Of a stretch of DNA of 64,000 bases, positions 45,710 to 46,146 are shown piece after piece (position 1 is the first letter of the stretch; each line of letters opens with the position of its first letter). The notes under the pieces were generated by a model. The model did not search any database. It was not told where the DNA came from and was given only the letters and a program-made list of their open reading frames with translations. The stretch spans positions 140,368,001 to 140,432,000 of the forward strand of contig OX597817.1 in the NCBI GenBank assembly GCA_951406725.2, written 5' to 3'. Source of the stretch: Octopus vulgaris. Lineage: Eukaryota. Both the position numbers and the translations under genes were made by a program.

Positions 45710-46146
45710 GGGGTGAAAAGGAACACACGAGTTGATATATATGAAAAAACAAGTAAAAAATAGAAAATGCTAAAATAATTTTATAGTGAACATTTCAGTA
45801 CCGCGGTTTCGGTCATTTTGAGACCTTTTCAACTGTAACGATTAAATAATTAAATTTAGAAAAATTAGAAGAAAAGTTTTTTTAAAAGAATATTTCTATA
45901 GTAGTGTTAACTACCTCGAACACACAAGTGCAAACAAGGGAGTCAGAGAAAGGCAGAATACCACTTAAATCTGAACACTACTATAGAAATATTCTTTTAA
46001 AAAAACTTTTCTTCTAATTTTTCTAAATTTAATTATTTAATCGTTACAGTTGAAAAGGTATCAAAATGACCGAAACCGGTACTGAAATGTTCACTATAAA
46101 ATTATTTTAGCATTTTCTATTTTTTACTTGTTTTTTCATATATATA
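45710..46146. mobile_element. Fold-back element: tail 45710-45734, arms 45735-45908 / 45974-46146, one outward-facing HHR per arm
   Basis: ~173-bp near-perfect inverted repeat, 65-nt spacer, (TA)n both sides. Confidence 0.85.
46047..46084 (+). ncRNA. Minimal type-I HHR with U3:A8 covariant core (mirror copy 45796-45835, minus strand)
   Basis: CAG-TTGAAAA-GGT..ACC-GAAA-CCGG-TA-CTG; mirror copy has stem II GGTC/GACC and stem III ACCGCGGT. Confidence 0.75.

What the first reader, a model, noticed from the sequence alone, without database searches (positions are those of the whole stretch)
45710..46146. Palindrome with U3:A8 covariant hammerheads whose two arms differ in the stem-III palindrome
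Seen: core UUGAAAA replaces CUGANGA, i.e. the 3:8 tertiary pair C-G becomes U-A. The arm differences I could see both fall inside the ribozyme: stem III ACCGCGGT vs ACCGGT (both still palindromic) and stem II GGTC vs GGTA. Established: the 3-8 Watson-Crick pair is required for the active fold. Inference: the double change indicates selection for activity, and the two arms may derive from two different pseudo-LTR templates.
Basis: partly seen in the sequence, partly recalled or inferred. Interest (0 to 1): 0.7.

Follow-up and report, generated by a model that had tools for sequence, protein, structure and literature searches.

The report
Inverted Penelope retroelement end with hammerheads
This hairpin is an ordinary, shortened insertion of a very abundant Penelope-type jumping gene; each arm carries a predicted self-cutting RNA motif with an already published core swap, and the two differences between the arms are likely chance mutations of this one copy rather than two kinds of template.

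Summary
The sequence is as described: a 174-bp-arm palindrome (45735-46145), each arm with a minimal type I hammerhead motif, core UUGAAAA (U3-A8); the arms differ at two places, both in the motif. It is a head-to-head pair of 5'-truncated pseudo-LTRs of a young Neptune/Nematis-type Penelope-like element (4.4-kb unit, RT plus GIY-YIG) in a (TA)n tract. U3-A8 is the family norm (1860 of 1869 exact-context copies) and is published for Penelope-like hammerheads. The two-template idea fails: ACCGCGGT occurs once genome-wide against 1357 ACCGGT; GGTA 5 times against 1860 GGTC; arms of 35 inverted pairs are closer to each other than to other copies (1.4% vs 4.0%) and share rare variants. Selection on the fold is supported between families (compensated stems), not by this locus, whose transcript would fold into a hairpin that buries the ribozyme. 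Cleavage untested. By-products: exactly one arm carries the 34-nt tail in 34 of 35 pairs; 5' ends cluster at a likely start site; a U UUU UUA site joins ORF1 to the RT ORF in three families. The scan noted the same kind of thing before on other DNA of this genome.

The parts
45550..45709 (.). (TA)n microsatellite, left target flank
45710..45734 (-). unique part of the 34-nt 'tail' (pLTR positions 439-472), on the left arm only; in full elements this sequence runs on into ORF1 (ATG at pLTR position 498)
45735..45908 (-). left arm: 5'-truncated pLTR copy (reference positions 267-438 plus tail), subfamily A (youngest)
45796..45835 (-). minimal type I hammerhead motif, U3 at 45832, A8 at 45827, stem II GGTC/GACC, stem III ACCGCGGT (private CG insertion about 45802-45803), predicted cut after GUA at 45799
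45909..45973 (+). unpaired spacer = pLTR positions 202-266 of the right-hand copy; begins in the 198-203 cluster of 5' ends (likely transcription start); private G>A at 45960; joined to the left arm with no gap
45974..46145 (+). right arm: pLTR positions 267-438, no tail, runs into (TA)n
46047..46084 (+). minimal type I hammerhead motif, U3 at 46050, A8 at 46055, rare C>A in stem II at 46060 (GGTA), stem III ACCGGT, predicted cut after GUA at 46081
46146..46162 (.). (TA)n, right target flank

Best explanation
The palindrome is a short head-to-head insertion of two 5'-truncated ends (pseudo-LTRs) of a young, high-copy Penelope-like retrotransposon in a (TA)n tract, likely made by the element's RT-endonuclease copying RNA from one source locus from two fixed start points, and the differences between the arms are likely later mutations of this copy. 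Steps: (1) shown: the parent is a 4412-bp unit with ORF1 and an RT + GIY-YIG ORF between direct pLTRs that carry a U3-A8 minimal hammerhead motif; (2) inferred: the endonuclease cuts (TA)n on both strands and each 3' end primes cDNA, one at pLTR position about 472 (with tail), one at about 438 (without), both TA-rich; (3) inferred: the right-hand cDNA ran to the RNA's 5' end (about position 200), the left one stopped at 267, and the two were joined end to end; (4) inferred: a CG duplication, a C>A and a G>A arose afterwards, or are assembly errors; (5) predicted: the ribozyme matters, if at all, in transcripts of full elements, where it would cleave at GUA as a dimer through the ACCGGU palindrome; at this locus a read-through RNA would form a 174-bp hairpin that buries it, so this copy is likely inert.
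For: Parent: direct pLTRs 4412 bp apart in L031, 784-aa ORF with RVT_1 (E 3.5e-08) and GIY-YIG (E 3.8e-04, 21.1 bits, under the 22.6 cut-off; the sister family passes at 29.4), linker CGRPNCGIC. Counts in the 2.8-Gb genome: U3-A8 1860, other 3/8 states 9; ACCGGT 1357 vs ACCGCGGT 1; GGTA 5. In contigs of four public runs (organisms A and B) C dominates at 46060 (e.g. 209,631 of 211,086 summed depth in X1) and no variant is listed at the 3 or 8 positions. 42 of the first 100 listed matches lie in 21 inverted pairs within 6 kb (my count from the listing). In 35 inverted pairs exactly one arm has the tail in 34, neither in 1, both in 0; arms differ by 1.4% against 4.0% between pairs, 0 of 10,000 permutations; 31 of 34 classifiable pairs share a subfamily; rare variants shared by both arms in L094 (A8C), L074, L078. 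In 16 pairs with offset junctions the tailed arm is the longer in 7 and the shorter in 9. 20 of 45 truncated 5' ends lie in positions 198-224 (3.7 expected), 9 in 198-203. Cofolding two common copies gives the dimeric hammerhead topology with intermolecular ACCGGU (-22.9 kcal/mol). Literature: two RT start sites and both-strand cutting (PMC11167929); inverted truncated copy, one-sided tail, (TA)n bias (PMC8557442); U3-A8 in PLE hammerheads (PMC4209133).
Against: 3 of 34 classifiable pairs are discordant by my four-site classifier (L031, L051, L126), and L051 (29 differences in 109 nt) and L146 (arms 89% alike, one U3-A8, one C3-G8) could be real two-source insertions. Subfamily concordance is also expected if masters were active one after another or if arms undergo gene conversion. 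9 of 25 simple junctions are symmetric within 6 nt, which fits fold-back self-priming better than two independent primings. The ACCGCGGT allele rests on the assembly alone. Monomers do not fold better than shuffles (z -0.23 to -1.13), the predicted dimer includes a U3-A17 pair that would compete with U3-A8, and the cofolds have no shuffled control. No cleavage and no expression were shown.
Confidence: 0.88

Rival explanations
1. One reading: the arms were copied from two different pLTR alleles (source elements), one with ACCGCGGT/GGTC and one with ACCGGT/GGTA.
For: The arms do differ at those two places; a few pairs may be heterologous (L051, L146, L031); an earlier scan note (e1-9539494, unchecked) claims this for another locus.
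Against: ACCGCGGT 1 copy genome-wide; GGTA 5 copies on three subfamily backgrounds; both arms here are subfamily A at every diagnostic site they cover.
Confidence: 0.04
2. Fold-back: one cDNA was made, its 3' end snapped back and copied itself, and the one-sided tail arose when the endonuclease resolved the intermediate.
For: 9 of 25 simple junctions symmetric within 6 nt, several with short hairpin-like filler; shared rare variants follow at once; self-priming and endonuclease resolution are proposed in PMC3846280 and PMC8557442 (passages).
Against: At this locus the shorter arm has the tail and the longer arm lacks it, so neither can be a plain copy of the other; the same holds in 9 of 16 offset pairs. 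It needs an intermediate not yet joined to the target.
Confidence: 0.2
3. The hammerhead motif of this family is a non-cleaving relic or works only as a dimerising or protein-binding structure; U3-A8 was fixed by drift in a master copy.
For: No monomer fold; predicted U3-A17 mispairing; ribozyme mutants did not affect insertion in vitro for the anole element (PMC11167929); metazoan minimal hammerheads cleave weakly (PMC4209133); C3-G8 doubles in the old subfamily fit chance (2 seen, 0.53 expected, P 0.10).
Against: Core letters kept while stems change in compensating ways across subfamilies and families; the 5 hits of a descriptor outside the two studied families all have Watson-Crick 3-8 pairs although any letters were allowed. 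This rival concerns function and is compatible with the origin in the best explanation.
Confidence: 0.3
4. A MITE or foldback DNA transposon with terminal inverted repeats.
For: Near-perfect inverted arms in TA.
Against: Arms vary from 36 nt to several kb between insertions, are pieces of an RT-GIY-YIG element, and many copies are single; the spacer is the element's own sequence.
Confidence: 0.01

Closest known systems
U3-A8 minimal hammerheads of Cercyon Penelope-like elements, Schistosoma mansoni (Cervera and de la Pena 2014, PMC4209133; read parts 1-2 of 4)
   Same: Type I minimal motif in pLTRs, U3-A8 core (about 1,300 hits there), palindromic stem III, pairs on opposite strands 100-700 bp apart, predicted dimer.
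   Different: Here stem II is 4 bp, there is no extra base between positions 9 and 10.1, stem III is ACCGGU, and the family is young and uniform.
Neptune/Nematis EN+ Penelope-like elements (Craig et al. 2021, PMC8557442; Arkhipova et al. 2013, PMC3846280; passages read)
   Same: RT then GIY-YIG, CX2-5CXXC linker, direct pLTRs, inverted 5'-truncated copy, 30-40-bp tail at one end, (TA)n targets; the Fig. 1 legend allows an ORF1 behind a frameshift with a pseudoknot.
   Different: Clade not placed by a tree here; I could not see which clades Fig. 1 marks with ORF1; no stimulatory structure is predicted after the slippery site in this family.
Poseidon element of Anolis carolinensis (Frangieh et al. 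2024, PMC11167929; read parts 1-2 of 4)
   Same: Two internal RT start sites that define the tail, cutting and extension of both strands at AT-rich DNA, hammerhead with an essential 3-8 pair.
   Different: Other clade, C3-G8 core, single ORF that begins inside the ribozyme; here the ATG lies 124 nt after the predicted cut and both start sites are TA-rich, like the target.
Natural U3-A8 hammerheads (Perreault et al. 2011, PMC3088659; passages read)
   Same: C3-G8 covarying to U3-A8, stated to be active in vitro; repeat-type motifs with palindromic stem III and a dimer model.
   Different: That survey is not about this element; activity of this sequence is untested.

Membership tests
EN+ Penelope-like element | RT followed by C-terminal GIY-YIG endonuclease in the parent | tested here: met
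   RVT_1 E 3.5e-08; GIY-YIG E 3.8e-04 (21.1 bits, just under the cut-off); sister family at 68% identity passes
EN+ Penelope-like element | direct pseudo-LTRs from partial tandems | tested here: met
   L031 copies 4412 bp apart; also L136, L137
EN+ Penelope-like element | inverted 5'-truncated copy at the 5' end, with a 30-40-bp tail on one end | tested here: met
   34 of 35 pairs with one tail; this locus included
EN+ Penelope-like element | hammerhead motif in the pLTR | tested here: met
EN+ Penelope-like element | single ORF (canonical form) | tested here: not met
   ORF1 and ORF2 overlap in the -1 frame in L031, L033, L035, L047/L137 and in two sister families; PMC8557442 Fig. 1 legend treats ORF1 plus frameshift as an allowed option, so this does not exclude membership
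EN+ Penelope-like element | RT groups with telomerase-like PLE RTs in a tree; optional intron | not tested
   no reference proteins fetched
Neptune/Nematis clades | [quoted passage not shown] | tested here: met
   CGRPNCGIC and LTCSGC; definition from PMC8557442
Neptune/Nematis clades | clade placement (Neptune vs Nematis) | not tested
   (TA)n targeting fits Neptune but no tree was built
Minimal type I hammerhead ribozyme | core U4 G5 A6 A9 G12 A13 A14, A15.1-U16.1, H17, Watson-Crick 3-8 pair, G10.1-C11.1, stems I and II | tested here: met
   stem II is weakened in the right arm
Minimal type I hammerhead ribozyme | palindromic stem III that allows a dimer | tested here: met
   cofold (prediction, no shuffled control)
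Minimal type I hammerhead ribozyme | extra base between positions 9 and 10.1 (typical of PLE min-HHRs in PMC4209133) | tested here: not met
   A9 is followed directly by G10.1; a typical trait, not part of the catalytic core
Minimal type I hammerhead ribozyme | match to an Rfam hammerhead model | tested here: not met
   0 matches at gathering score; E-value mode not run
Minimal type I hammerhead ribozyme | self-cleavage at GUA | not testable with these tools
   needs a bench assay
MITE / foldback DNA transposon | fixed terminal inverted repeats around non-coding filler, no RT parent | tested here: not met

The most novel reading that the evidence does not exclude
The palindromic stem III works as a pairing signal, like a retroviral dimer-initiation site: it holds two transcripts of one source locus in a symmetric hammerhead dimer on a dimeric RT-endonuclease, each primed on one strand of a cut (TA)n target at a different fixed site (438 or 472). 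That would explain why about 40% of this family's motifs sit in inverted pairs, why exactly one arm is tailed in 34 of 35 pairs regardless of arm length, and why rare pairs join different subfamilies that share ACCGGT; the hammerhead would then shape integration, not only cut RNA.
Probability: 0.12. Interest if true: 0.65.

Novelty: new member of a known kind. Interest (0 to 1): 0.17.

Why it matters
The locus itself is ordinary debris. The family is a useful test bed: more than 1,800 near-identical copies, intact-looking RT-endonuclease frames, a strict one-tail rule and diagnostic subfamily letters allow the open question of how Penelope-like elements make inverted insertions, and what their hammerheads do, to be asked on a whole genome and in the existing in vitro system.

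Tried and rejected
Rfam scan: nothing. Within-family covariation as proof of selection: rejected; in the old subfamily (708 exact copies) C3 occurs in 18, G8 in 21, both in 2, against 0.53 expected (P 0.10); in the young context one C3-G8 copy (L091) against 0.006 expected is a single event. Independent check of the CG insertion: no listed contig of X1, X13, X4 or X2 bridges 45803-45804 at 100% likeness (30 of 197 pieces shown; contigs drop rare variants), so real private mutation and assembly error cannot be told apart. Expression: no RNA holder listed; X9 is RNA only by guess. Pile-up of 5' ends at the predicted cut (position 375): not testable, because loci were picked by patterns that need the whole motif. 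Stimulatory structure after the slippery site: none predicted (-0.2, -3.6, -11.5 kcal/mol in the three families, no pseudoknot search). ORF1: no Pfam match; the Atlas look-up gave no answer. Hammerheads in the window's other palindromes: none by my descriptors. Papers not held: Lunse et al. (PMC5785218) and Przybilski and Hammann 2007 (PMC1986816); I saw them only as citations. Searches: 'hammerhead C3U G8A' 0 papers; 'Neptune Penelope frameshift pseudoknot' only PMC8557442; the frameshift search listed no PLE paper in its top 25 of 709. No supplements or figures were read; they may already describe cephalopod U3-A8 motifs or Neptune ORF1. Rows left out: the inverted pair L015/L016 (one tail) was not in the 35; five 5' ends past position 342 were dropped before the cluster count; the 198-224 window was chosen after seeing the data.

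Full report
1. Observation. The window lies in a 2.8-Gb genome of 227 contigs; earlier scan notes call it octopus (unchecked). Arms 45735-45908 and 45974-46145 align over 174 columns with two differences, a 2-nt insertion in stem III (ACCGCGGT left, ACCGGT right) and GGTC vs GGTA in stem II. Each arm holds a type I minimal hammerhead motif with core TTGAAAA, so positions 3 and 8 are U and A. The two motifs lie on opposite strands and point away from each other. The region folds into one long hairpin (-251.6 kcal/mol, z -39.6). Rfam finds nothing at gathering score.

2. What it is. The right arm has many 99% copies in the genome (40 of 476 candidates scored). In L031 two copies lie 4412 bp apart in direct orientation around two ORFs. 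The second ORF (784 aa stop to stop in L033 and L035) matches RVT_1 and, just under the cut-off, GIY-YIG, with a CGRPNCGIC linker, the mark of Neptune and Nematis Penelope-like elements (PMC8557442, passages). The 65-nt spacer is the element's own sequence upstream of the arm. So the palindrome is two 5'-truncated pLTR copies joined head to head with no gap, positions 267-472 on the left and 202-438 on the right, between (TA)n tracts. This arrangement, with a 30-40-bp tail at one end, is described as typical.

3. The core. Exact-context counts: U3-A8 1860; non-U at 3 in 5 copies (3 C3-A8, 1 G3-A8, 1 C3-G8); U3 with non-A at 8 in 4. Reversed-pattern controls gave 0 throughout. Contigs of four runs from organisms A and B list no variant at these positions. 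U3-A8 is published for Schistosoma PLE hammerheads, about 1,300 hits, along with opposite-strand pairs and palindromic helix III (PMC4209133, parts 1-2), and as a natural, in-vitro-active covariation (PMC3088659, passages). Selection cannot be read from one inherited copy. Between lineages it can be argued: an older subfamily (about 80% alike, 708 exact copies) closes stem II with A-U in place of G-C and keeps the core, U3-A8 in 651; a sister family (68% ORF2 identity) has TTGATAA, another stem II and the palindrome ACATGT in nearly all of 41 motif hits, overlapping loci not removed; the 5 descriptor hits outside these families all have Watson-Crick 3-8 pairs (2 U-A, 2 C-G, 1 G-C). Against: C3-G8 doubles inside the old subfamily fit chance (2 vs 0.53, P 0.10); monomers do not fold better than shuffles; the predicted dimer (-22.9 kcal/mol) includes a U3-A17 pair that would compete with U3-A8; and ribozyme mutants did not affect insertion in vitro in the anole element (PMC11167929).

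4. The arm differences. ACCGCGGT occurs once in the genome, in this arm, against 1357 ACCGGT. GGTA occurs 5 times, on three subfamily backgrounds, so it recurs by mutation. Duplicating the central CG of a palindrome always leaves a palindrome. The insertion is predicted to keep the dimer (-28.7) and the C>A to break stem II (-16.6). I could not confirm the insertion outside the assembly. In 35 inverted pairs, which include all 21 pairs among the first 100 listed matches plus 14 from other searches, arms differ by 1.4% against 4.0% between pairs (0 of 10,000 permutations), 31 of 34 classifiable pairs share a subfamily, and both arms share rare variants in L094, L074 and L078. Both arms here are subfamily A. 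Exceptions: L051 (29 differences in 109 nt, no tail on either arm), L031, L126, and the old pair L146, whose arms are 89% alike with U3-A8 in one and C3-G8 in the other. Two-source insertions may exist, but nothing shows that this locus is one.

5. How it likely arose. Exactly one arm ends at 472 (tail) and the other at 438 in 34 of 35 pairs; none has two tails. Of 32 pairs examined, 25 have simple junctions: 9 symmetric within 6 nt, 16 offset, with the tailed arm longer in 7 and shorter in 9. This fits the anole element, which cuts and extends both strands and starts reverse transcription at two internal sites that define the tail. Inference: each end of a cut (TA)n target primes at one of the two TA-rich sites, on RNA from one source locus. 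Fold-back remains likely for the symmetric junctions and possible in general. Of 109 de-duplicated copies, 50 are truncated within the pLTR; 20 of the 45 that start before the core begin at 198-224 (3.7 expected; window chosen after the fact), 9 at 198-203 beside a TCAC word. I read this as the RNA's 5' end; the right arm here starts at 202. Any transcript through this locus would pair the sense ribozyme with its antisense copy, so the copy is likely inert.

6. Parent's coding layout. ORF1 (about 410 aa, no Pfam match) overlaps ORF2 in the -1 frame; ORF2 has no methionine in its first 67 codons. The overlap holds an in-frame T TTT TTA in this family and in two sister families whose ORF1s are only 45% alike. 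U UUU UUA is the HIV-1 type slippery site (abstract of PMC4373837 in the listing). A programmed -1 frameshift is likely but untested; no stimulatory structure was predicted. The idea is in print (PMC8557442 Fig. 1 legend) and was noted by the scan in another genome (e1-8573887).

7. Verdict. A new member of a known kind. Earlier scan notes on other DNA of this genome reach the same class (unchecked). Interest 0.17. The boldest reading not excluded is that stem III pairs two RNAs for two-ended priming (probability 0.12); searches listed no paper whose title or abstract states it, but I read only parts of six papers (PMC4209133, PMC11167929 parts 1-2; PMC8557442, PMC3846280, PMC3088659, PMC6765202 passages) plus passages of bioRxiv 10.64898/2026.07.22.740005, and no supplements or figures.

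Noticed in passing
L031:4068-4128, L137, L140, L136 (parent elements elsewhere in G000): ORF1 and the RT-EN ORF overlap in the -1 frame with an in-frame T TTT TTA site, kept in three families with 45% ORF1 identity; candidate programmed frameshift.
   Followed up: partly
window 45431-45458 (+), also L136 and L142: End of another repeat family just left of the (TA)n: hammerhead-like motif with C3-G8 but U in place of A6 in three copies (CTGTAGA, CTGTAGA, CTGTCGA), stem III ACGT; the studied element sits in its TA tail.
   Followed up: partly
window 46163-46723: About 560-bp element with 39-bp terminal inverted repeats beginning TACAGGGTGTCCC, in TA; looks like a Tc1/mariner-type DNA element (label recalled).
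   Followed up: no
window 48747-48978, 61887-62116, 63443-63776, 20381-20735: Further near-perfect palindromes beside (TA)n; probably inverted ends of other retroelement families; no hammerhead by my descriptors.
   Followed up: partly
L146:1162-1591: Old inverted pair whose arms are 89% alike, one with U3-A8 and the other with C3-G8.
   Followed up: partly
L051:1446-1809: Inverted pair joining a subfamily-B arm to a much more distant copy (77% alike); no tail on either arm.
   Followed up: partly
L094/L095 (G000:C23:31260739-31261081): Both arms of one insertion carry the rare A8C core change.
   Followed up: yes
L076:2433 (-), L108:405 (-), L137:1280 (+), L109:289 (-), L049:3967 (-): Hammerhead motifs of other families with G3-C8, U3-A8, U3-A8, C3-G8 and C3-G8 cores.
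   Followed up: no
pLTR positions 198-224 across loci: Cluster of 5' ends of truncated copies beside a TCAC word, just downstream of a C-rich tract; likely transcription start.
   Followed up: partly
L044/L103, L136: Ends of this family abut the ends of sister families at TA runs, i.e. nested insertion into other Penelope-like ends.
   Followed up: no
window 18948-19262 and 47720-47848 (-): Weak tblastn matches to the GIY-YIG part of ORF2 (E 6e-05, 2e-04): remnants of older elements.
   Followed up: no
window 42010-44872: Four or more copies of a 170-240-bp repeat in both orientations, 82-92% alike; not identified.
   Followed up: no
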